From positions 43,276,001 through 43,340,000 of the forward strand of contig CM059446.1 in assembly GCA_030390025.1 (NCBI GenBank): DNA of 64,000 nt, in the 5' to 3' direction. Below are positions 1-59,225 of the stretch, piece by piece. The notes beneath the pieces were generated by a model. The model was not told the DNA's origin and ran no database searches. It was given only the letters and a program-made list of their open reading frames with translations. This stretch comes from Squalus acanthias. Its lineage: Eukaryota. Position numbers and translations under genes: made by a program. The stretch's first letter is position 1. Each line of letters opens with the position of its first letter.

Positions 1-805
1 CCCTTCCTGGCCCCCATGTTAGCTGATGTTGTTAACGGTTCCCTCTCCTCAGGTACAGTACCCCTCCCCTTTTAATCTGCCGTCATCACGCCTCTCCTCA
101 AAGAACCCACTCTTAACCCCTCTGTCCTTGCAAACTACAGCCCCCATCTCCAGCCTCCCTTTCCTCTCCAAAGTGCGTGAATGTGTTGTCGCCTCCCAAA
201 TCCGAGCCCATCTTTCTCTCAATTCTATGTTTGAATCCCTCCAATCAGTTTTCTGCCCCCGCCACAATATTGAAAAGGCTCTTATCAAAGTCACAAATGT
301 GACTGCGGTAAACTATCGCTCGTCATCCTTCTCGACCTATCTGTAGCCTTCGACACTGTTAACCACACCGTCCTCCTCCAACGCCTCTCCTCCGTTATCC
401 AGCTGGGTGGGACTGGTCTCGCCTGGTTCCAATCTTGTGTATCCAGTCGTAGCCAGAGAATCAATTGCAGTGGCTTTTCTTCCTGCACCGTTGCCTCTGG
501 AATCCCTCAAGGATCCATCCTTTGCCCCCTCCTATTTCACATCTACATGCTGCCTCTCGCCAATATCATCTGAAAACACGACGTCCGGTTCCTCATGTAC
601 ACTGACGACACTCCACTCTACCTCACCATCACCTCTCTCGACCCCTCCACTGTTTCTGATTTGTCACACTGCTTGTCTGACATTCAGTACTGGATGAGCA
701 GAAATTTCCTCCAACTAAATATTGGGATGAGGTCCCCGCCACAAACTCCTTTCCCTAGCCACCGACTCCATCCCTCTCCCCGGCCACTGTCTGAGGCTGA
801 ACAGG
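1..805 (+). mobile_element. L2-clade LINE fragment (RT region, degenerate)
   Basis: Frameshifted RT motifs: PISSLPFLSKV, QSVFCPRHNIEKALIKVTN, LLDLSVAFDTV, and YTDDT (YADD-like). Confidence 0.85.
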
Positions 806-13610: not shown

Positions 13611-13752
13611 GTTGGTGCAAGTGAAGATGGAAAAAGAGCAGTATCAGAGTGAAATTAGAGACCTGCAGGACCAGCTCTCAGAAATGCACGACGAGCTCGA
13701 TCGTGCAAAAATCTGTGTTGACAATGAAGAGGAAAAAGAGACTTTGATAATG
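13611..13752 (+). CDS. CGNL1: CGNL1 internal exon D
   Basis: tttctgtcag|G ... ATG|gtaagt. 142 bp; LVQVKMEKEQYQSEIRDLQDQLSEMHDELDRAKICVDNEEEKETLIM, containing the CGNL1 hallmark EIRDLQDQLSEMHDELD. Confidence 0.95.
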
Positions 13753-15359
13753 GTAAGTAGATAAAAATTCAAAGATCAGCCTATTCCTCCCTCTCCGCAC
13801 TCAGTTGTTTGCCAAGTTCCCTTTTCATTTACTGAAATGCTAAAATTTTAAAGGGGAAGGGAAGTCTGGACCTTTTTTTTCTCCCAAGGCTCCTTCCCTT
13901 TGATAGAAGAAAATAATGGTGACACTTCAAATTACTTCACTTTTCTTGCCAACATGGAGATCCTTTGAGTAGGGTCTCCCTCCCTCCCTGTTAGGCCACT
14001 TCAGTAATTGGGAGCTGCCCAAACAATGAGATCACTCTACAAGCTGGGAATGCAGATTTCTCAGCTGGAAGAAAGATTTTCCAGGATTAGGCAGCTCCAG
14101 AACCACACTCGGGCTTGAAGTCGCCCCCACCCCACATTTTTCGCAATAGACCCTCTCCAGTACGCATGGCGATGTTTAATGTAAGACTGTCACTTTCTTC
14201 TCTAAAAAGGGGAAAACTGAATTAAAAAGTACTCCCCTAAACTCTCCTTGCCCCTTTTAAGTATGTTGCACCACTATGCAAACAGTCTATTTGTTGTACT
14301 CTGATCCAAATTGTTAGTAAATTGGATCTTCAGTTTAAGTGGCAACCCTTGTCGTTCCTTCAACATGGAATGCACCATTTATAAAATCCTCTGCAAATCA
14401 GAGTGCTTCCTTTTACGGGTGGCGAAAGTGGTGCAAATTGTGCAAGCAGTCCTGGGTGATACAGGATGGAACTGTAAACATTCTGGATCATCAGCTTTCA
14501 GATGCAATATAATGGTAGAATGGTATGATACAATTGGTGAGCCTCCTCAGTCCGTAGAGGCAAGTAGATTTGATTGGCAGTCGTTCTGTGAGTTGGACAT
14601 TGTGATCAGGAAGCAATCACTAGACTACCTGAAGGATGGAATTTTATTGTTTTAGAAAGAATTACAAAGAAATGTTCCACAGTTCTTTACACAATATTCT
14701 GCATTGAAACAGCTGAAATTACATCTAAATTTATGCTCACTGCCTGCGATGGGCTGGAACAAAAATGTTCATTTTTGCTTATTTTTTGTAACATTTCAAC
14801 ATTTTCCATTTTATTGTTCAAATGCCTTCATGAGTAATGAATAGAAAGGCCAACATAAACAAATGTTTTAACTTCCTTCTTGACATAGTTATCAAGTCAG
14901 ATTTGAGATTCATTTCAATATTTCCATGCACTGTCTTTTGCTTTAATTTTCCTCAGATTTAGTGTTCTCCCTTTCTCTTGCGACAAAATGTCTTCAGCTA
15001 CAAAAGGTGGGACAACCCAGATCACCGACTTCTCTATTACTGTGGCTGTAAAAAAAAAAATTAGAGAATATTTTGTGCTCGATGACTCGGTTGCTGAATT
15101 ATACATAGCCTGATGTGAAGCTGATGGATATAAGCAGGTTATTAAACTTTGACTGTGATCAAAGAGCTGGAGGGTTATGGGGGCAACGTGAGTAAGCTTA
15201 ATATATTCAAAGGCCAGATGAGGCTGGAGATAAATTCCCTCCTGTCATAAGGTCCCCCCCCCCATAAGATATTGGATATATCCCAGCAAAAGCAGTTAAT
15301 ACTATGTTGATTAATATATTTTTTTTAACTCCTATATAATTATTTCTTTTAAGATGCGA

Positions 15360-15690
15360 TTGTATGCTGACCAGGAAAATCCCAGATTCAATTCCAGGCA
15401 GGCCCTGTGCTGTGTTAGGTGATCTCAGCCGGGGTGCTAGAATTGGTGTTGGCACCCTTGGGTTCCCTTCCCTGATCCAATCAAGCAACCTTTGTTAGAA
15501 ATGTGTGTGTACGGATGTTTAATAAGGAGAGGATTGACTGTAATACCCCATGTCGTTGAATATCTGATGATACTCACTTTCTACACTCAAACACAGACAA
15601 TGGCTCCTTGGGCGAGATACTGGAGGCTGTCTGGTGCTCCTGAAACCACATTGTAACACCAGCAATAGAGAAAGTGGGGCAATAATTGGT
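15360..15690 (+). mobile_element. Old SINE-like interspersed repeat (one of about 7 degenerate copies in the window)
   Basis: B-box-like ccagattcaattccagg. Shared blocks recur at about 1780-2120(-), 9230-9545(-), 12960-13190(+), 16060-16300(-), 31380-31960(-) and 43000-43390(-). Confidence 0.5.
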
Positions 15691-17099
15691 CAGAAAAACA
15701 TGGGTTTGGAACCCACAAGGATTAAAATAGATGATTGAATACTCCATGGCACATGATGGTTTCTGGGACTATGACATATATCACCTGTGGAATCCAGCAG
15801 GCCGGAATTGAAGTGTGAGCATTATTATCATGGAATTTTACTCAATTACTTTCAGGGATCTGACATTTTACAGTGTTATTTTCTTTCAGCTGTATTTAGT
15901 TGTCCTGCTCCTTGAATTCAATGGCTTGAGAAAAGTCCATGATAGAACAAATTGTACATGGTCTGTGGAAGGAATAGCTTAATGGACTGAATTCTACAAT
16001 GTTCTATGTTTTTGTAACAGGAGACGAACAGCCGTTATGCTTCCCTCCCCTGCTGTACTTCCCAGCATTCCTCATCCAACATCCAAACACATCGCTTACA
16101 GCAGCGGCCACTAGATAGCAATCAGGAGCAGAAACCCAAGCCAATATTCCCTCCTTAACCCAGATACACTGAGGCCAATTGTACCTCTACAGTCAACCTA
16201 GTTGAGATTATGTAGCACAGCACAAACCAGGGACTGAACCTCAGGACTTTCTGTGTGTATGTCTCAGCTACTCACACTGGATTAAACTCGTTGAGCCTTT
16301 GGGGAAGTCTATTTTTTTAAATCAGTAAGTGTAGATTAACTGCACTCTTGAGTAGAATCCTCTGAAGGAGCTGCAAAATGGAATTTGTGTAAATACTATT
16401 CTGACCCTGATTGTGGATCAAATGAGATATGGGGTGCTAATGCGTAATATTGTTATTTAGCAAAATGCATTTGCAAATTGGGTAGATGAATGATTTAGGA
16501 GCTTAGAGCTGGGCATTAAAAATTGAACACATTTGGCCACAAATGCTATTTGGAGCACGAACATAATTAAATGGCTACAAAGATACTTGTTTTTAAAGTG
16601 AAAATAAGTGTGTTACTAAGCCATACAGATCAGAATGAGCCATATTTTATTCATGGTCTGTGTTGAATTAGTTGTTCTCAGCTGGACTAAATGCTGCTCA
16701 GCAAGGGAGGAGAAAATCTGTGCTTGATTACCATCCCGGGATCCTGCTCGAAAGTTCTTGTTTGTGGACCTTGGGTGATGTTGGACTCAACACTGATGAC
16801 CTCCATATTAAAATAGACCGCTGACACTCGCATAAAAATGGTCTTCTGGGTTAGGTACCAGAGGCCTTCTAGTGCCTGTGGAACCAAACCCCAACAGGAG
16901 TCAGCACCTTCAGGACAGGTGAAAAATTTCGGAGTACTGTTGCAAATGAAGATTAAGGAGGCTAATAAAATCATCAGAATGTTTCTGTTGTGTGTACAGT
17001 ACATATTTTAAATGACTTCTCTCAACACAAAACTGTGTTAATGGTGTTTGTATCAGTGATGTTATTGGCAATGCACGTAAATATTGTGCCTGGTTCCAG

Positions 17100-17312
17100 G
17101 AAATGATTGAGGCAAAGCAGCAGCTGCAAGAGGTGCTGATAGCTAAAGAAGATCAGCAGGAGGTGTTGAGGCGAAGAGAAAGAGAGCTGACAGCACTTCG
17201 AGGTGTCTTGAAGGAGGAGGTGTCAAGCCATGACCAGGAAGCAGAAGATCTTAAAGAACAGCATGAAAAGGAGAAACAGAAACTAAAGAACAGCATTGAA
17301 GATCTAGTGCAG
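17100..17312 (+). CDS. CGNL1: CGNL1 internal exon E
   Basis: tggttccag|GAA ... CAG|gtgagt. 213 bp; EMIEAKQQLQEVLIAKEDQQEVLRRRERELTALRGVLKEEVSSHDQEAEDLKEQHEKEKQKLKNSIEDLVQ (cingulin-family RERELTALKGALKEEV motif). Confidence 0.96.
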
Positions 17313-18624
17313 GTGAGTTAACAATTGGCTTACAAAATCGCCTTTTTTGGAGATATTTTGGACAGGGTAGTGGAACTGATGGGAAAAAAAATCTTTCAAT
17401 TTCCTCCCCCTTTGTGGTATGTATTGCATGAATACAAACCCATATATCCCGCAATGTCCCTGTCAGCTTCAGAACTCCAAAATGTGCCTGTGTATGACTA
17501 CCTGAAATAACATTGTAAAAGAGGCTCACTACATTTTGTAAAGATAAACTTCAGCTTGCAAGCCATAGATTTCTTGTAGTACTTTGTGTTTAATACTTTA
17601 ATGGGTAGCAGATTTTTTTTTTAAGTAATTGCCAGAAATAACACTGGGTTCACTCTTCCTAAGATCAAACTTGCCATGTTGTGGAATGATGCTCATTGTG
17701 GGGCAGCATCCACTTGCTATTTGTTTGCAAACATCTGCGTTTGTCATATTTTAGATACTACATGGGTATTGGTGCAGATGAATATCACATGCTATGATTC
17801 TCTGTCCACTCTCATATTCGCATTAGAAAATGTTTTGGCATATATGCACAATGGTGGAAATGAGTGCAGTAAAATCTTCCTCATATCTATTAATTGTGCA
17901 GATAGACCATTCTCTTAATGAGCGGTGCTCTGAAGCATTTCACTTTCTAAGAAAGAGCTGTAATTGTAAGTGACAAGATGAAAGATATGTTTGTTATGTG
18001 CTACACTTGGCCTGAAAAGTGCCCTATAAGTAGGTCAATGTGGCTGAAGGATGGGGCTATAAATAGAGTAGTTCTTTTCTCTCTGTGGCATTTTAATGTT
18101 CTTGTGTTTGCACAATTAAGTTTCAAGGTTAATTAGTTTAAATTCTTTTACAAGCAAAGAGACATTTTCTTTCATTTACAGTAGAGTAAATTTCAAGTTT
18201 AAACTAATTGCTAAGTCACCTTCCTGGCTGTGTCATTTGAAAGTAGTTTACTTTGGTGTTACAGTTTCAAAATGATCATACTGCTACTGCTGAATGTCAA
18301 ATAAATTCTGGATTTGATTGTAGTTAATTACTCCAAACAAGTGGAGATGCACAATCTCCAAATAGCATTCTCCCCTTTTAAACTTTTGCAGCATGCAGCT
18401 GGTGATTGTGGGGCCTTTTCGAGGGTCAGTGGGCTAAAAGCATTTGTCTTCTGCTCCTCTGATCTCTTTTCACAAACCCTGAAAAGGTTGGATTGCAGTA
18501 GCATTGGGGTGTTCGCGATCAGGTTGTTTATTTTGTTGTTGGCTGTCTGTGGTGCCGTACGGCATGCTGCAGATAGCATACCACCGATGTAAAAAATGTG
18601 TTAAGGTGATTTGATTCTGTTCCA

Positions 18625-19018
18625 CATTGGGTACAGTAGTGTAGTGGTTGTGGTACTCTACTAGTAACCCGGGGTTCAGATCCCAACATGACTAGTCGTA
18701 GAATTGAATTCAATTAATCTGGTCATTGTGGACTAGCAGCAGAAAAAAATGTCCATTTAAAAGCTGCTAAATTGTTGTCAAAAAACACTCGAGTTCACCA
18801 ATGTCCTTAGTAGAAGATGTCTAGTCGAAGGGTAACTATCACCCCTACGCGTGACTCCAGTCACGTGTTACATGGTTAACGCTTTGCCCTCTGAAGTGCC
18901 CTAGTGATTGACTCGGTCATAAAACATAGTGCATAGAAAAAAGCCCACAACCACCTTTTCAACAAGGGTTGGGCAATAAATGTAAGCTTGCCTGCATTGC
19001 CACATACTGAGAACAAAT
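18625..19018 (+). mobile_element. tRNA-derived SINE (degenerate)
   Basis: A-box-like tagtgtagtgg and B-box-like ggttcagatccc. The tail gggcaataaatg...gccacat is related to the minus-strand fragment at 63112-63172. Confidence 0.6.
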
Positions 19019-19481
19019 ATTATGCCACAACTCCTGTTCTAAAGTGTATACAGAATAAAATGCACTATATCCTTTTCATTTTATGGCCCATTACTCTAGT
19101 ATTTTTTTGTATTATATTCACTTTTCGTGTCTGTGGGACACACTTCCAGAAAGTATTATGATTCTGGAAAACTCTCCTGAGTAAGCAGAAGTTGAAATGC
19201 AGAGTTGCTAGCACATGGCGAATTTAGTCACAATACTCGTCAATTTACAATTGAGGCTGGAAATGAATCTGTCTTTGTGCTTGCACAGATTTATTGGTGT
19301 TTGCAATGGACTAAAATTTCATGTCTGTAGTGTGCATGGTACAAAGTTTTGATAAATACAAGGACAATATTATCTTACAGCAGTGTGTATCTAATCAAAC
19401 TGCTGAGGTAACGTTTGCAATGCTAAAGGAAGATCACTGCTCTTTTTGGGAGTGCTGAGCAGATTCCGTTTTATTGGGAAA

Positions 19482-19705
19482 TGTAACAGTGCGGGGTTTA
19501 TCGGAGTTACGCTGCGGGGTGTGGGGTATATCACTGAGGGGTGTGGGGTATATCACTGTTACAGTGAGGGGTGTGGGGTATATCACTGTTACAGTGAGGG
19601 CTGTGGAGTATATCTCTGTTACCGTGCGGGGTGTGGGGTATATCGGAGTTACAGTGAGGAGTGTGGGGTATATTAGTGTTACAGTGAGGGGTGTGGAGTA
19701 TATCG
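19482..19705. repeat. 30-bp minisatellite (about 7 units)
   Basis: Unit tgttacagtgaggggtgtggggtatatcac repeated with substitutions and one shortened unit. Confidence 0.92.
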
Positions 19706-20335
19706 GCAGCACAAGTAGATAAGCTGTGACAAATTGGTGGAACAATACTGCAGCACACAACCGGCTTAATTTGATATCAAATTTCATCCACAGAGGTAGC
19801 ATTTATTCTATAAAGACTGTGACCGGGATTTGCTGCTGCTGCACTCACTGGCCCGCGATTTGCAATCAATTACATGAAAAACCCCATCTTGTGTTTTGTG
19901 TATTGCATGTTTGAAAAGATTACTTTTTGTGGAAGGGAGGCAGATCGTTTATAGCAGAACTTCGAATTTACTAATTGACAAAAAAAAGTTTCGTTCCAAG
20001 ATGAGAACTTACTTGCTAATGTGGACTTTTACATATTTACTCTTCAATGTTGCAACCGTGTTTGCAGACACAAACTGATTAGGTGCAGTTTGGACTCTCC
20101 AAACACTTAATAGTAATAGTCAATTACACTCCAGTGAACTGAGTTTATGTGAAACGACTGTGGATTTTGTTACTGCTTTTCGTTTCCATATGGTGTTGCG
20201 AATTGCTGAAGGCATCAATTTGTAAAAAAAATCTTGAAAGATTACAGCATTACCCCCACACTAATTAGGTACTTAAAGATAGCTTCAAAGAATAGGTGGA
20301 AATGCAAATTCGTGATTTCCTATTTTTGACGCAGC

Positions 20336-23300
20336 GGCCGCGATTTCCCCTACCTCAGCGGCTCCGGTGCGACCGGGGTCGGTGGCAGGTCCCGACCTCG
20401 CTGCTGGCACCAGCCCGCTGTCCAAAGTGATTTTACGTTAATTGGGCTTGTTAAGCCCGCCCAGCGCGTTTGCCGGCCAATTGAAGGAAGCGGGCCTGAT
20501 GACATCACTTGATGACACGTCATCAGCCGGTTTCCTTAAAGGGACCATGCGCAAATTGATTTTGACAGTTGTGCTGTCAGTGTTCTACAGCATTGAGGTG
20601 CTACAAGCACTGTGCAGAGGTGCAGGACTTCACCCAGGCTCTCCCATGACTCTCTCCATATGCTTATGGAGGGAGTCACAGCACACAGGGAGGTTCTCTT
20701 CCCTTCCAATGGGCGGAAGAGACCTCCCCAGGGGATCAACGCAGCCTGGTTGCACATTGCACAGGCGGACACGAGCAGAGATGTCATCAGGAGGACCAGG
20801 CTGCAGTGGCGCCAACCTTTCAATGATGTTGGCTGTAAAGCGCTTTGAGACGTCCGGTGGTCGTGAAAGGCGCTATATAAATGTAAGTCTTATTTATTTA
20901 TTTATCTCAGTAGATCACGAAATGTTACTGCAAAGCCACACTCAACCTCATCCTGCTGTGCCACTCATCACATCCCCATAACTCTGCCTTCCCTACCCTA
21001 CTCCTGCATATCCTTACTCACACCAACTTAGCTTGCACCTCCACCCATCCCTCTCTATCTACATTATCACTTCCCCATCTCACTAGCCACCCATCACACT
21101 CACCCTCGTCCTAGTCCAATCATACCAACGAACAACACACAAGGGTAGGCACTTCTGTGTTTTATCTAATGTTCATGTGAAGTTTCTGTTAATGTGCTGT
21201 CAAACATTGAAATCTTTATTTTCAACACTTTGCGTTCTTGGACAGATTTGTTTGCACCTTTGGAAGTGGCTTAGTGAGTTGCAGTGAATGGTGAGACATA
21301 ACGGTAACCCCCCCCCAATTGTGATGAGTGTGAAAGGAATGGCTTGGGCATTGTAGGGATGCTTTATGGTGTTGGTGTGGAGTGGTGCCAACCTGGTGCA
21401 TCATGTGGCAGCCAGGGGTGTACAGCGTCAAGGGAAGTAAGTCTGGCTATGGTGAGGCCATTCCTGGACTCCGGGGCAGCAATATGGTCGGGTGCTGATG
21501 CCCTGTGTCCTCTGCAGCATCAGTTGATTGCAGAGAAGGTTGGTGATGGTGTTGGTGCTGCTGGTGTGCCTGGTGCTGCTGGTGTTGAGGCTGATCGTGG
21601 TGGGATTCTGAGGACCAAGGTGAGATAGTTTCAAGGGCACCAATGCTGATGTAATAGATGGCAGGTGAACTTGAGATGACCGAAGCGATCTGTCAATGTT
21701 GAGAGAAGTTGTTCCAATGAGGTGACACTGGATACAGAGTTTACTCCAAACACTTGCAACCTGCATAAAGCTCAATCTGTCTTCCAAATGCAGTAAGCAA
21801 CAGCTTCTGAGCTTGGAAACTGAACAGTTATGAGATGGGAGCTTTATAGCACATTTATATAGCATGCTCAGTCACTCAACCAGGAAATACCAAGACTGGT
21901 TCGACGAGAACGACCAGGAGATCCAGGAGCTAATAAGCCGCAAGCGCAAGGCATTCCTGATCTGGAAACAGCAACAGAACTCGAGAGCAAGAAAGCAGCT
22001 CTACAGACGCCTGAAGGCCGAGGTCCAACAAAAAACTCGCGACCTAAAGAACAGATGGTGGGTGGAGAAAGCGCAGGAGATCCAGCAGCTAGCCGACAAC
22101 CACGACGTGCGTGGATTCTTTAGCACAGTCAAGACCGCCTACGGCCCAAGCACCCAAGGTCCTACCCCACTGCGGGCCAAGAACGGAGAGGTAGTCATCA
22201 AGGACAGAGAGACAGTCAGTGCCCACTGGAAGGAGCACTTCGAAGATCTCCTTAACCGAGACTCTGTCTTCGATGCGAGTGTCCTCAACTCCATCCCGCA
22301 GCATGCTACCCGCCACCATCTCAGCACAACCCCAGCCCGGCATGAGGTTGAAAAGGCCATTCGACAACTGAAGAACAACAAGGCCTCGAGCAGATGGAAT
22401 CCCTGCCGAGGCACTAAAGCATGGCAGAGAAGTACTACTGGCGTGAATTCATGAACTAATTTCTCTTATCTGGAAGGAGGAGAGCATGCCAGGGGATCTC
22501 AAAGACGCCGTAATTGTGACCTATCTTCAAGAAAGGTGACAAGTCCGATTGCGGTAATTACAGAGGAGTTTCCCTGCTGTCAGCACAGGGAAAGTCATCG
22601 CAAGAATCCTCCTCAATCGCCTTCTTCCAGTGGCCGAAGAACTCCCAGAGTCGCAATGCGGATTCCGCCCACTAAGGGGCACAATGGACATGATCTTCAC
22701 CGCACGTCAATTACAAGAGAAATGCAGGGAACAACACCAACTGCTGTACATGGCCTTCTTTGATCTCACAAAGGCCTTCGACACTGTCGACTGTGAGGGA
22801 TTATGGAGTGTCCTCCTCAAATTCGGCTGCCCTCAAAAGTTTGTCACCATCCTCCGCCTGCTTCACGACGACATGCAAGCCGTGATCCTAACCAACGGTT
22901 CCACCACAGACCCAATTCACGTACGAACCGGGGTCAAGCAAGGCTGTGTCATTGCACCAACGCTCTTCTCGATCTTCCTTGCTGCAATGCTCCATCTCAC
23001 CCTCAGTAAGCTCCCCACTGGAGTGGAGCTAATTTACAGAACAAACGGGAAACTGTTCAACCTCCGTCACCTCCAGTCCAGATCCAAGGTCGTCCCATCC
23101 TCTGTCGTCAAATTACAGTATGCAGACGACGCTTGCGTCTGCGCTAACTCGGAGGTCGAACTCCAAACCATCGTCAACACCTTCACTGAAGTGTACGAGA
23201 GCGTGGGCCTTACACTAAACATCCGAAAGACAAAGGTCCTCTACCAACCTGCCCCCACCACACAGTACTGCCCCCCGATTATCAAAATCCACAACAAGGC

Positions 23301-24417
23301 CTTGGACAACGTGGACCACTTTCCATACCTCGGGAGCCTACTGTCAACAAGGGCAGACATCGATGACGAAGTCCAACACCGCCTTCAGTGTGCCAGTGCA
23401 GCCTTCAGTCACCTGAGGAAGAGAGTGTTTGAAGACCAGGACCTCAAACCTGGCACTAAGCTCATGGTCTACAGAGCAGCAGTGATACCCGCTCTCCTGT
23501 ATGCCTCAGAGACATGGACCATGTATAGCAGGCACCTCAAAGCACTGGAGAGGTACCACCAACGCTGCCTCCGCAAGATCCTGCAAATCCATTGGCAGGA
23601 TAGGCGCACCAACGTCAGTGTTCTCGCTCAGGCCAACATCCCCAGCATCGAAGCTTTGACCACGCTCGATCAGCTCCGATGGACGGGTCACATTGTCCGC
23701 ATGCCCGATACGAGCTCCAGCACGGCAAGAGAGCCCCAGGTGGGCAGAGGAAACGCTTCAAGGACACCCTCAAAGCCTCCTTGAAAAAGTGTAACATCCC
23801 CACCGACACCTGGGAATCCCTGGCCCAAGACCGCACAAAGTGGAGGAGAAGCATCCGGGAAGGCGCCAAACACCTCGAGTCTCTTCGCCGGGAGCAAGCG
23901 GAAGCCAAGCGCAAGGAGCGCACGTCAACCCAAGCACCCCACGCACCCGCCCCTTCAACCACCGTCTGCCCCACCTGTGACAGAGACTGTAGGTCCCGCA
24001 TTGGACTCATCAGTCACCTGAGAACTCATTTTTAATGTGGAAGCAAGTCATCCTCGGTTCCGAGGGACTGCCTAAGAAGATAGCACATTTGCAGCTGTCA
24101 AGTAAATAGATGATTTCATGGTAACACAACTCCTGACCTGCTTACCTGACGCCCGAGCAGTGTAGACCCCGTGGGCGACCTTGTAAAATTTAAAGATGAG
24201 CTCAAAATACTTTTTAAGTGGCTCTTAACAAGGTCATAATGACTTAAATTGCCACCCCTGCCGCTGCGTGTCGGGTCTGTTCAGCATTGACAGACCCGAC
24301 ATCTGGGAAAGTCGTGTGGCGGCGGGTTGACAGCGGGTTCCCTACCTGCTTCAAAAAAATGTTTTCCCACCAAACGCGCCCACTGACCCCCCCCCCCCCC
24401 CCCGAAAAATTCCCCCC
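20336..24417 (+). mobile_element. PIF/Harbinger-derived element carrying a Myb/SANT-like ORF remnant, interrupted by an RTE LINE
   Basis: Ends ggccgcgatttcccc ... gaaaaattcccccc. ORF 20612-20848 (PRLSHDSLHMLMEGVTAHREVLFP...AAWLHIAQADTSRDVIRRTRLQWRQPFND) fits the Harbinger Myb/SANT (NAIF1/MSANTD-like) pattern. Confidence 0.7.
21857..24079 (+). mobile_element. RTE-clade LINE, 5'-truncated, relatively young
   Basis: ORF pieces of 196, 384 and 118 aa with QCGFR, FFDLTKAFD, GVKQGCVIAP, LQYADD, YLGS and a terminal C2H2 finger CPTCDRDCRSRIGLISHLRTH. Tail ggactgcctaagaaga; 11-bp TSD atagcacattt (21846-21856, 24080-24090). Confidence 0.93.
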
Positions 24418-25191
24418 AACAAAATTTACGTTAGAATAAAGATCTTTTGCATCGTGTAATGTGCTGAGGCAATGAACCTGGCCTTGTTAATCGTAACATA
24501 ATATACTCTTGTCCCTGAAATTATAGGATTTCATGATCTATTAGTTTTTATGTCATTGCAAGATTATGAAGAATAGAAATATATGCTTGCAGTTTTAAAA
24601 AAAAACAATCTGGAGAAAAGGAAGTACAATGAGATTTTATATAGATAGAGTAATTTTCCTACACTGTGGCAGCAGAGTTATAATTGAGGTGGTTAACTTG
24701 CGCTCTCCCCACCCGTTCTTGCTGCACCTCCATTTTCCCCGGGGCCTTCCTTTGGGTAGCCCAGGCGCCTGCCTAAATCAGGTGGGAACCTCATAAATCT
24801 ATGCAAATTGGGGAACTATGACATGCATAGGACCTTGACCCCCCTATTGGGCGGAGTGTGTGTTGTGGATGCTCCAGTCAGTAAAACCTAGTGGGCAAGA
24901 GAAAGAGGCCCGGAAAGGTAAATGTTAAAAGTATTGCTCGTCTGGGCTCCACAAGTATAATGTAGACCACTACTACCCTGGGGTTTGGCTCCCCCCTTCC
25001 CCTCCTACTTTTCAGCTGGCTAGGTCAACCCCTGGGCTGCTCAATATTGTGCTAGCTCGGAACCAGTGAGCGTCAGCAGGACACCCATTTGGGTCATGCA
25101 GCTCGTCAGCGACATATTAATAAGGCTCAGCCCTTGAAATAAACTGAGCCTCCTGTCGGAGGGATTGGGCGGTCATCCCAACTGCTGGTTG

Positions 25192-26135
25192 ACAACAACA
25201 ACTTGTATTTATATAGCGCCTAGTAAAACATCCCAAGGCGCTTCACGGGTGTTATAAGACGAAAATTTGACACCAAGCCACATAAGAAGAAATGAGGGCA
25301 GATAACCAAAAGCTTGGTCAAAGAGGTAGGTTTTAAGGAGCGTCTTAAAGGAGGAAAGAGAGGTTTAGGGAGGGAGTTACAGAGCTTAGGGCCTCGGCAA
25401 CTGAAGGCATGGCCACCGATGGTTGAGCGATTATATGGTGGTGAGGTAGAGCTGGGTGTCGTCAGCGTACATGTGGAAACTGATGCTGTGTTTTTGGATG
25501 ATGTCACCAAGGGGCAGCATGTAGATGAGAATTAGGAGGGGGCCAAGGATAGATCCTTTGGGGACCCCAGAGGTAACGATGCAGGAGCGGGAAGAGAAGT
25601 CATTGCAGGTGATTCTCTGGCTATGATTAGATAGATAAGAATGGAAACAACAACAGAAAACGCTGGAAAAACTCAGCAGGCCAGGCAACATCCGTGGAGA
25701 GAGAAACCGAGTTAAGAATGGAACCAGGCGAGTGCAGTCCCACCCAGCTGGATGATGGTGGAGAGGCGTTGGAGAAGGATGGAGTGGTCAACCTGTGTCA
25801 AAGGCTGCAGACAAGTCAAGAAGGACGAGGAGGGATAGGTTTACCTTTGTCACAGTCACAAAGGATGTCATTTGTGACTTTGATGAGAGCTGTTTCGGTA
25901 CTGTGGCAGGGGCAGAAACCGGATTGGAGGGATTCAAACATGGAGTTCCGGGAAAGATGGGCACGGATTTGGGAGGCGACAACACGCTCAAGGACTTTGG
26001 AGAGGAAAGGGAGGTTGGAGATGGGGCAGTAGTTTGCAAGGACAGAGGGGTCAAGGGTTGTTTTTTTGAGAAGAGGGGTGATGATGGCAGATTTGAAGGA
26101 GAGGGGGACAGTACCTGAGGAGAACGAACTGTCCA
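25192..26135 (-). mobile_element. L2-clade LINE fragment with internal deletion and a 66-bp insertion
   Basis: GVPKGSILGP...HMYADDTQLY, LLDLSAAFDT and PISNLPFLSKVLE on the minus strand. The RT region is joined directly to the 3' tail near 25432. Confidence 0.88.
25647..25712 (-). mobile_element. Short PLE-derived module (sequence downstream of the hammerhead), inserted with a TSD
   Basis: TSD taagaatggaa at 25636-25646 and 25713-25723. The insert is homologous to 58281-58346 and 45792-45855. Confidence 0.8.
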
Positions 26136-27044
26136 ATAGTTTAAAATTTACTCTCGAGTTTCTGGATCATAGAGAACAGCGTCCACTTTCAGGAAGTGCT
26201 GGGAAAAGATTGAGAGAAACTGGTCAATAAAATGCCTCAAATTGGAACGACTTTCATACACTACTATTGGTACATCTTCCATATGGGCACATGCAACTCA
26301 GCTAGTTTAGGAAGGCTTCACACAAGGCTGTGTAAACTTTTTTATGTTTAATAAGATAAAATAATAATAAATGAGAATGTAATGCAATAGCTTTTCCTAA
26401 ACAAAATGAACTGGTTAAGAAGATAACAGTTGGCATTACCTCTAGAATGGATAACAGATGACAGACTGATGCAATTGTTTTCATGCTTAGAACAGGGTTA
26501 CATGAAACTCACAAAAAACTTTATTTGCTACTGTTGTATTCAATTGTTAATGTTCCTGTTTCACACCCACCCCGCCACTCCTTCTATTAGGATAATGGTT
26601 AATAACAAGAATTATAGTAGTGAATGTAAGTAAGTTGAACAAAAGAAATGGTAACAAGAAAGCAGAGAATTTACAATGCCGTTATCAGATGCATCTTTGT
26701 AAACTGAGAAAAGTCTGAGTTGGACAACATAGTATCGGTGAGCATACCAGTGATTTCAGAATAGTTTAATGTGAATTTATTGTTTTAATTTTGTATTTAC
26801 GTCAACGCTTGCGCCTTTCCCATGGTAGATTTTTTCTCACTGAATTTATGTCATATTTGTAAATTTTAACTCAAAAATATATTGTTATTGAATCGTGTGC
26901 TACTTTGGTTACACTGCATTTTCTGAGACACGGCCAAGGAGCTGGTTGGCAGCGCTGTAACACTGTAGGCCCTTTTATATTAGATTGCAGCTGAGTGCAA
27001 GTGTGTGATTGTCCCACTGTTGGTTGCACTTGTAAATGTAAACA

Positions 27045-27735
27045 ACCTAAACAACAACTTGCATTTATATAGTGTCTTTAACTCAGTAAAACGTCCCAAG
27101 GCGCGTCACAGGAGAATTGCCAAACAACATTTGACACCGAGCCACATAAGGAGATATTAGGACAGGTGACCAAAAACTTGGTCAAAGAGGTAGGTTTTAA
27201 GGAGCGTCTTGAAGGAGGCGAGAGAGAGGCGGAGAGGTTTAGGGAGGGAATTACAGAGCTTAAGGCCTAGCCAGCTGAAGGCACGGCCACCAATGGTGGA
27301 GCAATGAAAATCAGGGAGGCACAAAAGGCCAGAATTGTAGAAGCGCAGAGATATCAGAGAGTTGTAGGGCTGGAGGAGGTTACAGAGATAGGGAGGGGTG
27401 AGGCCATGGAGGGATTTGAAAACAAGGATGAGAATTTTAAAGTGGAGGCGTTGCTGGACTGGGAGCCAACGTAGGTCAGCGAGCACAGAGGTGATGGGTG
27501 AACAGGACTTGGTGCGAGTTAGGACACGGGCAGCTGAGTTTTCGATGAGCTCAAGTATACAATGATGCAAGGTGGGAGGCTGGTCAGGAGAGCATTGGAC
27601 TAATCGAGTCTAGAGGTAACCAAGGCATGGATGAGGGTTTCAGCAGCAGATGAGAGCGGAGACAGGGGCGGCGACATGCGGTGTTACGGAAGTGGAAGTA
27701 GGCGGTCTTGGTGATGGAGAGGACATGAGGTCAGA
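27045..27735 (-). mobile_element. L2-clade LINE 3' fragment
   Basis: ORF 27157-27570 LELIENSAARVLTRTK...WLPVQQRLHFKIL...FKTLLKTYLF; (caa)n tail. Confidence 0.88.
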
Positions 27736-27753
27736 GGTCATTGTTCTGATAGC

Positions 27754-28226
27754 CATGATGTGGAGATGCCGGTGTTGGACTGGGGTGGACAAATGTGAGA
27801 AGTCGCACAACACCAGGTTATAGTCCAACAGCTTTATTTGAAATCACAAGCTTTCGGAGCGCTGCTCCTTCGTCAGGTGAAGTGAAGAGATGCATATAGG
27901 CACAGCATATATAGTCAGAGAACACAGCCAGATGATTACAGTTAATCTTTCCAACTGCCCTTTATCACACCTCGGCAGAGAGATAATCACGGCAATCAAA
28001 GGTGTGGATGGTGTCCAAACCGGTCAGTCAGGAAAACATTACATCAAAGACAATGTGGCAGATGCTGGAGTCTGTATGGAAAACAAAAAACTTTTTTTGC
28101 TGGAAATCACAGCAGGTCCGGCCACATCTGTGTAGAGAGAACAAGCCAACGACGACTCGAGTCTGGATGACTCTACGTCAGGTGGGGTTACATGTAGCGT
28201 GACATGAACCCAAGATCCTGGGTAGC
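27754..28226 (-). mobile_element. Penelope-like retroelement 3' end
   Basis: Homologous to 4254-4691 and 10304-10354. 8-bp TSD ctgatagc at 27746-27753 and 28227-28234. Begins in the last codons of the PLE ORF (DLGFMSRY). Confidence 0.8.
27844..27880 (-). ncRNA. Minimal type I hammerhead ribozyme motif (PLE-associated)
   Basis: Minus strand: UCAC CUGACGA a GGAGC agc GCUCC GAAA gc UU GUGA. 4-bp stem I, intact core, palindromic AGCU stem III. Confidence 0.75.
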
Positions 28227-31200
28227 CTGATAGCAGCAGAGACCCACTCTTTTTTCAGGTCTTGCAAACTGCTGCCACATTTGCTGAGTCCACTTCTGGT
28301 CACTAAATGCTTGGAACCTGTTTAATGGGTCAGACTTTTATTCCTCAGTCTGCTTATTTGTACTTGGACACAGTGGTCGGTATAGCGTTGCATTAAGATA
28401 AAAGCACCTTGTCTTAGCTCTGCTCTAACAGCTAGAGGCAATACAGGGCCCTAGAATCCAACATGCACCATACTGTCATGACACACATTGAACCTACTGT
28501 GTATCTACCTACTGGCATGGGTGTGACTTGCAGCAGTAAGTAGATATAATGTATACACAGGCAGGTTATATGGGCCATTATACAGGGACCTTTATATTGG
28601 CGCTCATTGAGTTATGGGAGACCTACGACAGCTGGCCAGCTGCCTTCATTTACGCTACTTAGTTCACTCGCACACTGGAAGCAGAATTGTCTACACTTCT
28701 ATCACTGGTATAAAGTAGCTGGAATCACCATTATAAACACAGGGATCCAACTCCCAGGTACTGGTCTCGAATCCAAATTAAATGAGCTCCAGTATAAAGG
28801 GGCTTTAGCTTGATAATGGGTGCTGGACAACTAGGACGTGGGAAAAGTAACATGTAGTTATCAAGCTATGGGCGTTGTTTGTTGTCTGGAAAAACAATGG
28901 GAGATCGATCAGTGGGTTTATCCTAAAGGTCAATGTTTGTTTGTTCTGTTGAGCTCTTGCACCAATAGATATCGAGAGTAGGGAAGGGGAGAGCGAAGCC
29001 CCAATGAAGTCAATGTACACTAATAGGCAATTAAAAGGAGGTATATTGTTAAAAACCTAAAAACAGTACAAGTATCTGTATACTGCTGGCGGCCGTGATG
29101 ACTTTCAGGTGCCTCTGATGGCTTCGCAATTTTCATTGTTCTCTCGTGATTCCTTTTGCATGAGAACCGGCAGCTTTCAAGTGGGTTACACCCACGTGTT
29201 TGTGCACATTCTAGTGAATGCATAATGCCTGGATGGGGATAGCAGTGATCCCTATGGAATTTCTGCAACGCAGAAGGGGAAAGAACCTGTAAAACTGGCT
29301 GTTCAAACAAAGATTGCTTTCGTTAATGATTTACTCCGTGGCTGTTGATGATAAATAGAAGTAATGACCTTGACTGGGCAGAAGAACAAGTTTTTATAAT
29401 TAAACATTCGTGCCCTGAATTTATAATTAAGGTGACAATTTAGGAAATTTAACTGTAATAAGCGTGAAATTTAAGTGGAATTCTCAGTTTGTGTTAGATT
29501 CTCTACGTATGTATTAACTTCTAATAACTATATGGAGCACTTAGGATTTTTTAAAATAAATTTGCTTATAAACATGGAAAAATACAGCCTTACATTTGCT
29601 TTCCCAATGCCAAATTGGCTGAATTATGTTTGTTGTTAACCTGTTGGGACTTCCCCGAGAACGGTAGAGGTCATTTGGCTTTCCTCGCATTTAGTTTGAA
29701 GGCTGAGATAATTTGTACACATTTGTTTCCTTATTTAATTAAATTCACAACAAAAGTACATACACATCTATATTTGATGAAGCCATTGTACATTTAGATG
29801 TACATATGAATCTACATTTTGCGAAGCCATTGTACATCTTGATTGCACAGTGCTTGTGGGAGGGATGCATTAATATAGCCAGGTTTCTTGGCATGACTGC
29901 TTGTGCTGGGAGCAGTGTGCATCAAGGGGTTGAGGCAGCTAGTTTAGGCTTGGTCTTTCAATAGCTTGTCTTTCACCTCTTGCAAAATATATGTGAGAAA
30001 TCTATGCTGTACTCATTCTGTCCGAATACTAACTTTTCATCCCAATAAGCCTTGCAACAAAATTAATAAATTACTTTTCTCCCATCAGATACTTGGTTGC
30101 TTTGAAATTAGCCTTGTGCAAAATCGTACTGTTTCAGTCCCTGCAAATACTGGTATTACTTTACTGCTATCTCTCATCAGTCTCAGGAATCGTTCTTTAA
30201 AAAAAATGGATGTGCTGGGAATTATTCATTAAATATTTCATCAGCGCCTTTAAAATGTAATCAATTTTCACCAAAATGGAAAAACGATGACTCATCAATC
30301 CTTTCAACACCGAGGAAACTTCAAAACAGAAATTAAAATCTGAATTTTTTTTTTCCATGGCCCACGGCCAATTGTTAGTTTGCTTGGAAACGAAACTGCC
30401 AGTGATCATATCTGCCTCCCTTTAGGCCTCCATTCAGCATCCCCACCTCCACAGAACAATACAGTCGCGAATGGGAATTTGCCAGGGAAGGGGGTTTGAA
30501 CCTGTGTCTCATTACTGCTGTGTTGCAACTGTGCCATTTAGTATTTTGAGTATGGAATTATAAACATAAACATTGAATTGTTTTAGTACTATACTAGATT
30601 TCCCTATGCTTTCTATGGGCCTTCATTGTTTTTGACAAGACTTAGGTTGGTAAACGTGAGAGGCAGTAACTGCATTTGAACACTGATTAGTAAGACTGTT
30701 TCAAAGTGGAAGTACAGCTGACTCTGATTAGTCCAGATTGCAATACTTTCCTCCACAGCCTCACTCCCTTCAGCAATAGAATCCCATATTACCTTGCACC
30801 GTGCAAAGCTGAGATGTTTTTATGCTGCTCTTCAACCACTGGCACCATAGCATGGGTCTTGCGCAGGCGGCAGCAACATCCAAAATAAAGCTAGTGGATT
30901 TTTTTAAGACTGGGTGCCAGGAATACCCGCTTCTTACTGGGTCTTCCTGACCGCTGCCAGCTTTCCTGCGGCTCCTCTGGTGACAGCAATGTGCTTTGAC
31001 GGTGAAGTCCCGGCACACCATTGTTAATTCTGTCATGACGTTGTGACACAGTGTGATGCTATTACTATGCCGTACGTGCACACTCGCCAGAATATCATGG
31101 CCAAACCGTGCAGGTGTGGAATACCCCATCCCCCCCCCCCCTCCCCCCCCCGCGGCAACAGTGCACCCACTCTATTGGAAGACCAACTGCACCCTACAAA

Positions 31201-35230: not shown

Positions 35231-35992
35231 GGGGGAAAAATTCGGTTGCTTTGCGCCTCCCGTTAACGGTGCTAAACACTACCGCCATGATCTCCTGCGC
35301 CCGTAGATCATGACGTCAGTCGAGCGTGCAATGCCCCGGTAGCGCCCCGGACTGGATATTGAGTGGCGCCCCCTGCCTTTCCGCCTGCCGCTAGCAACGA
35401 CAAGTTGAGGGAAGGGACTGGGGGAGCGCTATTTAAAGGCAACCGCTTCTTGCCTTTTTTTGTCGGTGACATTTTTGCACCATGCATTCTGAGAGAGGGA
35501 GAGAGACTTCTGGAGAGATTCAACGCTGTGTGAAGGAGTTTTGGGTACTGAGCAGCACTTTGCAGGTTCATTTTGATTTGACCTTCCTTGCATCGATTTA
35601 GAAGAGACTATGGGGGCTGTACTTTGAGCTCTTACCCTGGGCCTCTCCATTGTTCTTTCCAGCAGATTTGATGTACAGGTCTTTCCAGGCCAAGATTCAA
35701 GGCTGCAATGAGCAGAGTGTGGATGGAGAGCAAGATCGACCCTCTCCTTTAAGAACTGGCCGGCGCCAGTGTGTCTGTGTTCCATTGTTGACAGACATCA
35801 CATGAGCTTCGCCAGCGCTCTGAGTTAGCGCCTTGCTCCTCGGCGTTAGTGCCTTAAGAGAGGTGTGTAGCGCCTGATTTAGCGCTCCAATCACCTCCAG
35901 GGGCGATAAAAGTCAAGTTTGCAGTCGGAGGCGATAATTAGCGCCAGGCGCTAAACTTTGCCCCAAACGGGGCGATACCGAATTTCTCCCCC
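35231..35992 (+). mobile_element. GC-rich MITE, family X (PIF/Harbinger-type)
   Basis: TIR gggggaaaaattcggt / accgaatttctccccc. Flanks taa / aaa. Comparison with the empty paralogous site near 37190 implies a 3-bp TSD. Confidence 0.88.
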
Positions 35993-37290: not shown

Positions 37291-38332
37291 GATTCTAAAG
37301 CTGCTTGAACTTGTCAAACCGTTGTGACAGCAATTTAGTTTGGATTCTCAAGAGGTGATTCAGTTCTCTAGACCTCGGTGAACATTTTAAAGTGGTTACA
37401 TTTCAATCCCGTTGGTTTATTTTCTGTGTTTTTTTTAAATAAGTGACTTACATATTTATTACACGTGCTTCACTAGTACTAAGTTTTCCTGACCTTTGCA
37501 TTGTGATCAACAACATGCAGAATTGGCCTGTTGACGATCTCTGGGATATCTAGCTTAGTATTCCACAACTGGCCTCACCTCTGACATCAGTGGATTGGCT
37601 CCCAGCTGTATCTAGAGTTAAAATGGAGGTTGCCTGCAGGGAGCATAAAGACAAATCGAAACGCAGTGGCCTAGATATTCATTGATACGCCGGAAGTGCA
37701 TTGCCTGCCATATTGGCTGAAGCATCGGCGTCCAGGACCCACGCCTGAAACAGGCATTCGGCCCACTATTTGCATAACGTTTGTTATTGGGCTGCCCTCG
37801 CGGAGTGCTCCCCGCGGCTCCACAACAGTCCCAAAGACCATTGCCGGACACCTGCTGCACGTCCCCAGGCAACTCGCCGTCGAAGCGGAGATTTCTTTAC
37901 TCTTTTATATTGCCTGGCTTGTGTTGGAAGTAGCTCCCACACTTCTCCTTTAACTCTTCAAACTGTTTTTAAATTTGTACATAATATAATTCCGGTCTAA
38001 TAACTGATGTTTGTTAACCATTTCATACACCCTTCAGATCTCTTCAGATGGTGCTATCCAAATTCAGTCTGCTAATGGCATTAAAAAAAACATTCACTTG
38101 TCGAGAATATTCACTTGATTTGCATTGAAATATTAGCATGAGTGTTTTCTAGTTATCTTTGGATCTTTAAAGAACAAAATACTGCAAATGTTGGAAATCT
38201 GAAACATGAAAAAAGCTAGAAATACAATCAGCATTTGAAAGAACAACCAATCGACATTTCAGGGTTCGTCCCTTTCTTCGGAGCCGATAATCCTCAGCTA
38301 AAGGTCTTAGTAACAGACCAATATTTACAGAC

Positions 38333-45552: not shown

Positions 45553-45759
45553 AGCAAAAATGCACTGGAGCAAGAAAAAATTGCAGCCAAACAAGCAAAG
45601 AACACTGCGGAGGATCACGTGAAAAATCTCACGGATGAAAATGAGACCCTGAAGAGAAAAATTGTGCAACTACAGGCTGAAATTGATGAACTCAATCAAA
45701 TCATTTATAAAATGAAGATAGAAGAGAACAGGTTGAAGGATAAACTCACACGTCTGGAG
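45553..45759 (+). CDS. CGNL1: CGNL1 internal exon F
   Basis: ttctaacag|AGC ... GAG|gtaatg. 207 bp; SKNALEQEKIAAKQAKNTAEDHVKNLTDENETLKRKIVQLQAEIDELNQIIYKMKIEENRLKDKLTRLE, heptad coiled coil, phase 0/0. Confidence 0.9.
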
Positions 45760-45782: not shown

Positions 45783-45855
45783 TGAAACATTAACTCTGTT
45801 TCTCTCTCCAGATGCTGCCTGACCTGCTGAGTATTTCCAGCATTTTCTGTTTTGA
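45783..45855 (+). mobile_element. Short PLE-derived module (hammerhead 3' half plus tail)
   Basis: gaaacattaactctgtttctctctcca...gatgctgcctgacctgctgagtatttccagcattttctg, homologous to 58273-58346; begins about 24 bp after the exon F donor. Confidence 0.7.
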
Positions 45856-46041
45856 TTGCATTAGTCACTGTTCCTTTCCTGGCAATTCTACTGCTTTGGA
45901 GAAACATAAGCGCCATCTGAAACAGATTCAAACTCGTGTGTCCGAGTTGAGAGTGTCAGCATTCCAATATAGCAACATTATGTCTCATTAAACTTCGATT
46001 CAGAGATAAACTTAAAGACTCTTCCACTATAACTTTTACAG

Positions 46042-57598: not shown

Positions 57599-58246
57599 TT
57601 GAGCTCACGTTGGACGCAGGTCGCCAGGCTTCTGTGGAGCCATTATCTTAATGTTGTTGCAGGAAGCTGGCAATCTTCCCTTCCAACTGGGTCTGTTTTG
57701 CTGTGCGCTTTGTTTTGCTTTGTTATAGAAGAGCAAGCAAAAATATCACAGTATCAAATTACGTTGACACTCTCTTAATAGCAAAGCACCTACATCAAGC
57801 TGCAGATGGATGAATTCATACATAAATTCTCAGTAACTGGGTACTGATCCAATCTAGCAGTACTTCTAATGCAGTCTACAAGTACAAAAAAATGATTTTG
57901 AATTATGAGGAGTAGTCTATTGTATTGCTCTACTAATCCTAATACGGAGTTAGACAGTCAAAAATAATCAATTATGGAATAGCTACTATGAAATAGAAAA
58001 AAAAGAGTGAAGGTCGCTCTTGGATTTAACTTGTGTCAAACGGGGTCTAAATCCTTACTGCGCGGCTCTTTTTTGAAAAGCCACGTTGCAGTGCAGCCAT
58101 TAATTCATGCAGTGCAGCTAAATCCTGCAGGACGTTGGGGAAACCCTTACATCCGGGGTTCCCGTCTGGAAGTCCTCCCCCCACCTGCCCACCCCGGTTT
58201 TCTTTGTGGCCCTGAGTAAATATTGGTGCCAACGTTTCAGGTCCAT

Positions 58247-58285
58247 CAGTTCTGATGAAAGGTCATCGACCTGAAACGTTAACTG
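58247..58285 (+). ncRNA. Minimal type I hammerhead ribozyme motif
   Basis: CAGUU CUGAUGA a AGGUC auc GACCU GAAA cg UU AACUG. 5-bp stem I, intact core, 5-bp stem II, palindromic ACGU stem III; predicted cleavage after 58280. Confidence 0.75.
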
Positions 58286-59225
58286 TGTTTCTCACTCTCT
58301 CCACAGAGGCTGCCGGACCTGCTGAGTGTTTCCAGCATTCTCTGTCTTAATTTAATAACTTTGCTTGAAACTCATAACCCTTTTACATATGAATGTGGTC
58401 CCTTTGGTAGTTCAGTTGTTGAATGGATAAAAAGAGTTAAGCTCATCATAATTTAATTATTATCTTCAAAGATCAGGTTTTTTAAACCAAAATCATCATC
58501 ATTAACCAAATTGCCACTGATGTTTTCTGTCAAAAATCTGTTTGTTTGCAATTGTTTCCGAACTTGAAGATGCCCCATAACCAATTTAGTCCCACTGACC
58601 AAGATCATATAACTCATCTGCCATGTATTTACTTCCTTCTATGTAATCTCAGTGTTGGCTCAGATTTTCTCTCTTGCATCCCTCTGCACCAAATTCATGA
58701 AGTGGAATTTGAGCACAATGGACAAGATATGTGGTTGTTTTAAATTCAGTTCAGATATTTAATAAATTTGATGTTTTATATTCTAGTGAGTACTATGGAT
58801 TCAATCAGAAATAATTGCTGGAGATTATGAAGCTGTAATGTTGAATAAAATTGCTTATTGTACTGATCGGTATTGATAAGGTTCCAGTGAAGGCTTGTCA
58901 TGTTACTGCCATCTATTGGCTAGAGGTGGGATCTCTAGTGTTGCGCATCATTTAAAAAAAAATCTCATTTCCTTGTTTTCCCACGCCCAAGCCATTAAAG
59001 AAAACGGGTAGATGACTGGTTTGTGTGCCCCACTTCTCTGCCGTTGCTGCTCTCTGCGTGCTACTAGGGGGTAACCTGAGAGCAGCCCATGGTTGCTTGT
59101 TTGGCAGCTTTTCCCAAAGTGCGAAAACTGTAAAACAGGTGCAACAATTTTGAAATTAGGCCTCGGTATTTTTAAATAGAACAAGAGTATTTTATTTTCT
59201 AACGTAAGACTGCTTAAGACCTCTT

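What the first reader, a model, noticed from the sequence alone, without database searches (positions are those of the whole stretch)
25636..25723. 66-bp retroposed module whose 5' end coincides with the hammerhead cleavage site
Seen: an L2 copy is interrupted by a short insert flanked by the direct repeat taagaatggaa (25636-46, 25713-23). On the minus strand the insert starts (a)actcggtttctctctccacggatgttgcctggcctgctgag..., homologous to the sequence that immediately follows the predicted cut site GAAACGUU|AACUG at 58280/58281. Nothing from the ribozyme core is included. Inference: the template was the 3' self-cleavage product, reverse transcribed in trans (probably by a PLE RT) and inserted with a TSD. 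That would be fossil evidence that these hammerheads cut in vivo and generate a Pol III-independent SINE-like or retrozyme-like family. Caveat: tta microhomology blurs the junction by 1-3 nt, and random 5' truncation could give the same end once.
Basis: partly seen in the sequence, partly recalled or inferred. Interest (0 to 1): 0.75.

Follow-up and report, generated by a model that had tools for sequence, protein, structure and literature searches.

The report
Tiny Penelope insert at ribozyme site
A real 66-base scrap of a likely Penelope-type jumping gene starts within two bases of the spot where that element's ribozyme is predicted to cut, but it is more likely an ordinary shortened copy than a record of the ribozyme cutting in cells.

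Summary
The insert is real: 66 nt (25647-25712) between two exact 11-nt repeats, absent from a paralogous LINE copy at 397-472. It is the stretch from the predicted hammerhead cut to a shared 3' end (+67 to +70) of a high-copy, likely Penelope-like module. Its 5' end lies between -2 and +2 of the cut, blurred by TTA microhomology. One case is weak: chance 2-7% per truncated copy, likelihood ratio 1.9-4.5. In the window 5 of 8 hammerhead-type copies keep the whole motif; the 3 truncated ones start at -9, at the cut and at +29/+39. The genome-wide test failed technically (most alignments clipped at a 2-nt gap). Best reading (0.55): ordinary 5'-truncated insertion; cleavage-defined end 0.35. It is not a SINE or retrozyme: no ribozyme, no promoter head, no tandem. 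The scan noted a like case in another genome and, elsewhere, copies that mostly start upstream of the motif (AI notes, unchecked).

The parts
25636..25646 (.). Apparent target-site duplication, copy at the element's 3' side; its first 3 nt in element orientation (TTC) also fit the family sequence
   Evidence: table 7
25647..25712 (-). 66-nt insert: module from +2 to +67 after the predicted hammerhead cut
25713..25723 (.). Apparent target-site duplication, copy at the element's 5' side; 25713-25715 (TTA on minus) is the microhomology covering -2..+1
25434..26130 (-). Host LINE RT-coding sequence interrupted by the insert (L2 by recalled motifs)
397..472 (+). Paralogous host LINE copy with the empty site
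58247..58285 (+). Minimal type I hammerhead motif: stem I 5 bp, core, unpaired A, stem II 5 bp, palindromic ACGU; predicted cut 58280|58281
58281..58353 (+). Module copy downstream of the whole hammerhead; 3' end at about +69 after allowing for a 4-nt insertion
58231..58251 (-). Inverted, head-to-head arm of the hammerhead core (10-nt internal deletion) whose outer end is exactly the last base before the cut
45783..45857 (+). Sister short copy that starts at -9 (3' foot of stem II) and ends at about +68: counter-example
28045..28181 (-). Diverged copy with whole degenerate hammerhead, module and tail
38175..38281 (-). Strongly diverged copy with whole hammerhead-like motif, partial module and tail

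Best explanation
The insert is a real 66-nt retrotransposed piece of the terminal module of a hammerhead-bearing, likely Penelope-like element, likely copied from the element's internal reverse-transcription start site and likely ended by ordinary early stopping and joining at a 3-nt TTA microhomology that overlaps the predicted cut. Steps: (shown) a target duplication and an empty paralogous site; 3' ends of 3 short copies at +67 to +70; a tail beyond that in 2 other copies. (Inferred from the Anolis element) the element's endonuclease nicks the target, the nick pairs over about 3 nt with a longer element RNA at the internal start site, and cDNA runs towards the hammerhead. (Inferred) the enzyme stops at or in the folded hammerhead and the second strand is primed where target and cDNA share TTA. 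The product lacks ribozyme, promoter and downstream protein-binding RNA and is predicted to be unable to move again.
For: Window tally: 5 of 8 hammerhead-type copies keep the whole motif; the 3 truncated ones start at -9, -2..+2 and +29/+39, so stops near the fold occur away from the cut. The junction has a 3-nt match that includes 2 bases upstream of the cut, which a cleaved RNA could not supply; under the cleavage model that pattern arises in 3-10% of simulated cases, under truncation in 1.4-5%. Chance that a truncated copy looks cut-compatible is 2.2-7.3%, and 6-20% for at least 1 of 3. In 4 of 4 contig runs the plurality letters of loose ends continue upstream into hammerhead sequence (table 7). 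In Anolis, cleavage-dead mutants insert normally in vitro and no RNA-seq reads ended at the cut (PMC11167929). 5' truncation, 8-10 bp duplications and microhomology 5' joints are described for these elements (PMC3846280, PMC8557442 passages).
Against: The likelihood ratio still favours cleavage, by 1.9-4.5. A second boundary in the same window, the outer end of the inverted arm at 58231, falls exactly on the cut with no match beyond it. One contig in run X8 restarts a second unit at the cut region (table 5c), though over a 4-nt microhomology. R2 shows that a ribozyme-made 5' end also joins by chance microhomology (PMC3774820 abstract), so microhomology does not exclude cleavage. No autonomous ORF for this family was found or tested here, so 'Penelope-like' rests on anatomy. 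The null models assume uniform truncation over 80 positions, which is my choice.
Confidence: 0.55

Rival explanations
1. The template was the 3' product of hammerhead self-cleavage of a longer element RNA. RT started at the internal site, ran off the 5'-OH end at +1, and the second strand was primed on the terminal A; the upstream TT match is chance in an AT-rich target. The matching 5' product may likewise have templated the inverted arm at 58231.
For: 5' end within 2 nt of the cut, no core base; likelihood ratio 1.9-4.5; inverted arm ends exactly at -1; a head-to-tail restart at the cut region in one X8 contig; precedent in R2; the Anolis hammerhead cleaves when its protein is present.
Against: 1 of 3 truncated copies only; sister copy at -9 needs uncleaved RNA; A10.1-U11.1 instead of the conserved G-C and a GUU triplet in the 58252 copy; low in vitro activity of minimal motifs (PMC4209133); 8 of 9 Xenopus dimers did not cleave; in Anolis the shortest active template began at +20, 6 nt upstream of the cut at +26; no pile of loose ends at 45790-45792 among the 24 of 401 rows shown, though the gap artefact makes this uninformative.
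Confidence: 0.35
2. The 5' end marks a splicing branch point, not a cut: TTAAC with its second A at +2 lies about 21 nt before a pyrimidine tract ending in CAG, so RT copying a branched splicing intermediate would stop at +2.
For: The sequence shows TTAAC, a pyrimidine tract and CAG in acceptor order; with an 11-nt duplication the insert starts exactly at +2; these elements are known to keep introns near the hammerhead (PMC4209133). The branch-point consensus and distance are recalled.
Against: No splicing was tested; a lariat still joined to its downstream exon is short-lived (own knowledge); in Drosophila virilis the intron ends upstream of the motif.
Confidence: 0.05
3. The 66-mer is a unit of an independent, self-propagating SINE-like or retrozyme-like family that an autonomous RT mobilises in trans.
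For: The module is very abundant (13,214 to 29,640 contigs laid per run); rare head-to-tail joints exist (tables 5 and 5c).
Against: No hammerhead in the unit, no tandem at this site, no RNA-family head; 5' ends differ among the window's copies; the unit stops at the presumed RT start and lacks the downstream RNA that the Anolis protein needs.
Confidence: 0.05

Closest known systems
5'-truncated insertions of the Poseidon-type Penelope-like element of Anolis carolinensis (PAc; Frangieh et al. 2024, PMC11167929, parts 1-3 of 4 read)
   Same: Minimal hammerhead ending GAAACGU(H); fixed internal 3' start tens of nt downstream of the cut; optional tail to a second start; AT-rich target.
   Different: Cut-to-start distance 67-70 nt here against about 85-92 nt there (computed from their +26 and +111-118); no ORF or activity tested here; they report no role for cleavage and did not, in the text I read, map genomic 5' ends against the cut.
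Minimal hammerheads (min-HHR) of metazoan Penelope-like elements (Cervera and De la Pena 2014, PMC4209133, parts 1-2 of 4 read)
   Same: Core, 5-bp stem I, unpaired base before stem II, palindromic stem III positions, mostly single dispersed motifs, some opposite-strand pairs.
   Different: Stem II 5 bp and closed by A-U in the 58252 copy; the finding itself carries none of the motif.
R2 elements whose HDV-like ribozyme sets the genomic 5' junction (Eickbush et al. 2013, PMC3774820, abstract read)
   Different: In R2 the ribozyme lies downstream of its cut and stays in the insert; here the catalytic core lies upstream and would be lost, so the product is a dead end.
Animal non-LTR retrozymes (Cervera and De la Pena 2020, PMC7229834, passages; Li et al. 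2026, 10.64898/2026.07.22.740005, parts 1-3 of 5 read)
   Same: Non-coding, related to Penelope-like terminal repeats, present in a cartilaginous fish in the preprint.
   Different: Defined as tandem units each with a hammerhead; this insert is a single unit without one.

Membership tests
Endonuclease-positive Penelope-like element insertion | Short target-site duplication (8-10 bp in Adineta) | tested here: met
   11-nt apparent duplication, empty paralogue; PMC3846280 passages
Endonuclease-positive Penelope-like element insertion | Optional 30-40 nt tail beyond a shared 3' end | tested here: met
   3 copies end at +67..+70, 2 run on into a tail; loose 3' ends continue into the same tail in 4 of 4 runs
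Endonuclease-positive Penelope-like element insertion | Inverted head-to-head 5'-truncated copy | tested here: met
   58231-58251 against 58252-58280
Endonuclease-positive Penelope-like element insertion | Module forms the pseudo-LTR of an RT + GIY-YIG ORF | not tested
   No such ORF seen among 32 ORFs of 120 aa or more in the window (by eye; 4 pieces scanned); no genome held; peptide too short to search
Minimal hammerhead of Penelope-like elements | CUGANGA / GAAA / NUH core, 4-5 bp helix I, unpaired base before helix II, palindromic 15.2-16.2 | tested here: met
   58247-58285; features from PMC4209133
Minimal hammerhead of Penelope-like elements | G10.1-C11.1 pair | tested here: not met
   A-U in the 58252 copy; G-C in the degenerate 28180 copy
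Minimal hammerhead of Penelope-like elements | Self-cleavage as a dimer | not testable with these tools
   Needs an assay; monomer MFE fold pairs part of the core (z -1.95)
Ribozyme-defined 5' end (R2-like) | Genomic 5' ends peak at the cut | tested here: inconclusive
   1 of 3 truncated copies in the window; contig overlay clipped at a 2-nt gap
Non-LTR retrozyme | Tandem units, each with a complete hammerhead | tested here: not met
   Single unit, no core; definition
Non-LTR retrozyme | Circular RNA intermediate | not testable with these tools
   No run on record as RNA was listed
SINE | tRNA-, 5S- or 7SL-derived head with Pol III promoter | tested here: not met
   No Rfam match over the insert at E<=1; definition recalled
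SINE | Own lineage of copies with a fixed 5' end | tested here: inconclusive
   5' ends vary among 5 window copies; no genome-wide sequences available

The most novel reading that the evidence does not exclude
Both products of hammerhead self-cleavage are copied into the genome: the 3' product gives dead-end 66-nt inserts that start at the cut (25647-25712), and the 5' product gives inverted arms that end at the cut (58231-58251), as when a protein dimer holds one cut and one uncut RNA. Tens of thousands of copies would then record in vivo activity of minimal Penelope hammerheads, which has not been shown.
Probability: 0.3. Interest if true: 0.7.

Novelty: new member of a known kind. Interest (0 to 1): 0.4.

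Why it matters
Whether the minimal hammerheads of Penelope-like elements cut in living cells is open: they are weak in vitro (PMC4209133), dispensable for insertion in vitro, and no RNA ends were found at the cut in Anolis (PMC11167929). This family is so abundant that one assembly and one histogram of insert ends would settle it; about 50 truncated copies suffice if a quarter start at the cut, about 200 if 15% do. The finding names that test and adds a second (outer ends of inverted arms). On present evidence it is one suggestive example of a known kind of insertion.

Tried and rejected
No genome is held for the window. Pattern scans for more copies found 0 in viral contigs, 3 in metagenomes and 1 in prokaryote genomes; the 3 metagenome loci have unrelated, bacterial-looking flanks, the fourth is titled as a bacterium and was not inspected; 0 phage matches. 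No RNA holder listed. Contig overlay on 45771-45860 (4 of 22 listed runs, 55-100% of each read): the reference lacks 2 nt at 45808, so the largest 5' loose-end piles sit at 45801, 45809 and 45811, and only 24 of 401 rows were shown. The depth rise across the cut looked like a peak but equals the summed depth of gapped alignments in all 4 runs (296k vs 293k, 267k vs 266k, 174k vs 186k, 161k vs 150k), so I rejected it as evidence either way; the ratio of depth before and after the cut (0.83-0.87) is biased and also not used. A weak profile hit at 61075-61135 (E 4e-4) and 7 weaker ones were left out of the tally because their 5' ends cannot be placed. No clear duplication was found around the 45783, 58231-58353, 28180 or 38281 copies. 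The link to an autonomous ORF was left untested. The Anolis paper's supplements gave 0 hits for 4 terms, so its Fig. S2 on genomic coverage, which may bear on 5' ends, was not seen; the preprint's supplements are closed.

Full report
Observation. The 11-mer TAAGAATGGAA stands at 25636-25646 and 25713-25723 with 66 nt between. A paralogous copy of the host element at 397-472 has the site once and lacks the insert. The flanks encode two pieces of a reverse-transcriptase domain, and the duplicated site reads F-H-S-Y in that frame, so the A at the junction belongs to the target. That the host is L2 is recalled from motifs, not tested. On the minus strand the insert matches 58279-58345 (79%, E 3.5e-11), 45790-45862 (87%, E 1.2e-19) and 28099-28141 (82%, E 7e-06). 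The window looks vertebrate; earlier scan notes call the genome shark-like, which I did not test.

The hammerhead. 58247-58285 reads stem I (5 bp), CUGAUGA, an unpaired A, stem II (5 bp), GAAAC, GUU, then AACUG. This fits the minimal motif of Penelope-like elements (PMC4209133, parts 1-2 of 4 read) except that stem II is closed by A-U, not G-C. Rfam has no match. The cut after GUU (58280|58281) follows from hammerhead numbering (own knowledge). Activity is untested.

Junctions. Counting the first base after the cut as +1 (25713 on the minus strand), the insert covers +2 to +67, and the flank matches the element back to -2. The true 5' junction is one of -2, -1, +1, +2. At the other end the family variant seen (table 7) continues to match for 3 nt into the duplication, which looks like primer-template pairing at initiation (inference). 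Three short copies end at +67 to +70; two others run on into a tail of about 30 nt, and loose 3' ends continue into the same tail in 4 of 4 contig runs. The Anolis element starts reverse transcription internally, at +111-118 of its ORF, with the cut at +26, has a tail between two start sites, and needs the first 172 nt of the ORF as RNA (PMC11167929, parts 1-3 of 4 read). I infer that the fixed 3' end here is the first start site, and that the insert was copied from a longer RNA and cannot move again. 'In trans' and 'SINE-like family' are therefore not needed.

Is the 5' end more than chance? Simulating truncation at any of 80 positions with random window targets, the junction looks cut-compatible in 2.2-7.3% of cases depending on microhomology weight and target bias, and in 6-20% for at least 1 of 3 copies. 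For the pattern actually seen (match visible from -2), cleavage beats truncation by a factor of 1.9-4.5. These models are my own and simple. In the window there are 8 placeable hammerhead-type copies in two families: 5 keep the whole motif (58252, 28180, 38281, 27876, 4335) and 3 are truncated, at -9 (45783, the 3' foot of stem II), at the cut (this one) and at +29 or +39 (10354, second family, counted by eye). Eight weaker profile hits were dropped because their ends cannot be placed. The -9 copy needs an uncut RNA and suggests stalling at the fold.

Upstream of the 58252 motif is an inverted copy of the core with a 10-nt deletion, head to head; its outer end is exactly the last base before the cut, and the next base does not match the element. 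Head-to-head arms are normal for these elements (PMC3846280 and PMC8557442, passages), but they usually extend further; an arm ending at the cut is what the 5' cleavage product would give. No duplication flanks this unit, so a later deletion explains it as well. In run X8 one contig restarts a second unit at the cut region, over a 4-nt microhomology; in X13 and X1 single contigs restart just before the core and inside stem II (table 5c; 12 of 21 rows shown).

The genome-wide test. No genome is held and collection scans gave no true copies. I laid 4 of 22 listed contig runs (three organisms by code) on 45771-45860: 13,214, 25,589, 26,306 and 29,640 contigs aligned, so the family is very abundant. 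The reference lacks 2 nt, and the largest 5' loose-end piles fell at 45809 (613, 830, 823, 877 contigs), 45811 and 45801; none at 45790-45792 or 45783 is among the 24 of 401 rows shown. The plurality letters of these loose ends continue upstream into hammerhead sequence in all four runs, most clearly in X8 and X13, at agreement 0.44-0.50, so motif-bearing copies are common; the share that starts at the cut cannot be read. The depth rise across the cut equals the depth of gapped alignments and is an artefact. The decisive test is thus inconclusive.

Mechanism and odds. Ordinary early stopping at the folded hammerhead with joining at TTA: 0.55. End set by self-cleavage: 0.35; R2 is the precedent and shows that microhomology is expected under cleavage too (PMC3774820, abstract); against it stand low in vitro activity, no cleavage in 8 of 9 Xenopus dimers (10.64898/2026.07.22.740005, parts 1-3 of 5 read), and in Anolis normal insertion by cleavage-dead RNA, no RNA ends at the cut, and a shortest active template starting 6 nt upstream of it. 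Stop at a splice branch point at +2: 0.05 (sequence shape only). Independent SINE or retrozyme family: 0.05.

Print and earlier notes. Six searches returned no paper that maps genomic 5' ends of Penelope-like copies against the hammerhead cut; the library lacks most subscription papers, Lunse et al. (PMC5785218) was seen only as a reference and in a review passage (PMC6765202), and Fig. S2 of the Anolis paper could not be seen. PMC7229834 and PMC6155905 were read as passages. Earlier AI notes of this scan report a 63-bp case at the cut in another genome and fungal cases, and another window where nearly all copies start upstream of the motif; these are leads, not support, and single hits are expected when many windows are read.

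Verdict. Observation confirmed; interpretation partly supported. A new member of a known kind, with about a one-in-three chance of being a trace of in vivo cleavage and a cheap test to decide. Interest 0.4.

Noticed in passing
window 58231-58280: Head-to-head inverted hammerhead arm with a 10-nt deletion; outer end exactly at the predicted cut; the 5' strand of stem I overlaps the inversion junction.
   Followed up: partly
window 27750-27885 (-), 4255-4344 (-), 10301-10354 (-): Second hammerhead-bearing family: two 96%-identical copies with the whole motif and one 5'-truncated copy with tail; its cut context has no TTAA, so it is a good control family.
   Followed up: partly
window 45783-45857: The sister copy sits about 22 nt into an apparent intron of a coiled-coil host gene (exon-like stretches near 11600, 45550-45760, 53050); gene not identified.
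   Followed up: no
window 58278-58309 and 45790-45814: The module reads like a splice acceptor: TTAAC, pyrimidine tract, CAG, then ATG in most copies; a second acceptor-like stretch ends at the start of the tail.
   Followed up: no
tables 5 and 5c (reference 45771-45860): Rare head-to-tail module dimers; second units restart just before the core, inside stem II, at the cut region or inside the module.
   Followed up: partly
window 21834-24035 (+): Long LINE copy with an RVT_1 domain (E 4.4e-33) and a C-terminal zinc-finger-like end, RTE-like by recalled motifs.
   Followed up: partly
window 2476-3155, 35271-35790, 52150-52800: A repeat family with GC-rich hairpins (weak microRNA-model hits below gathering score); two copies 93-94% identical.
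   Followed up: no
window 55486-57600: G-rich tandem array around an assembly gap (601 N in the window).
   Followed up: no
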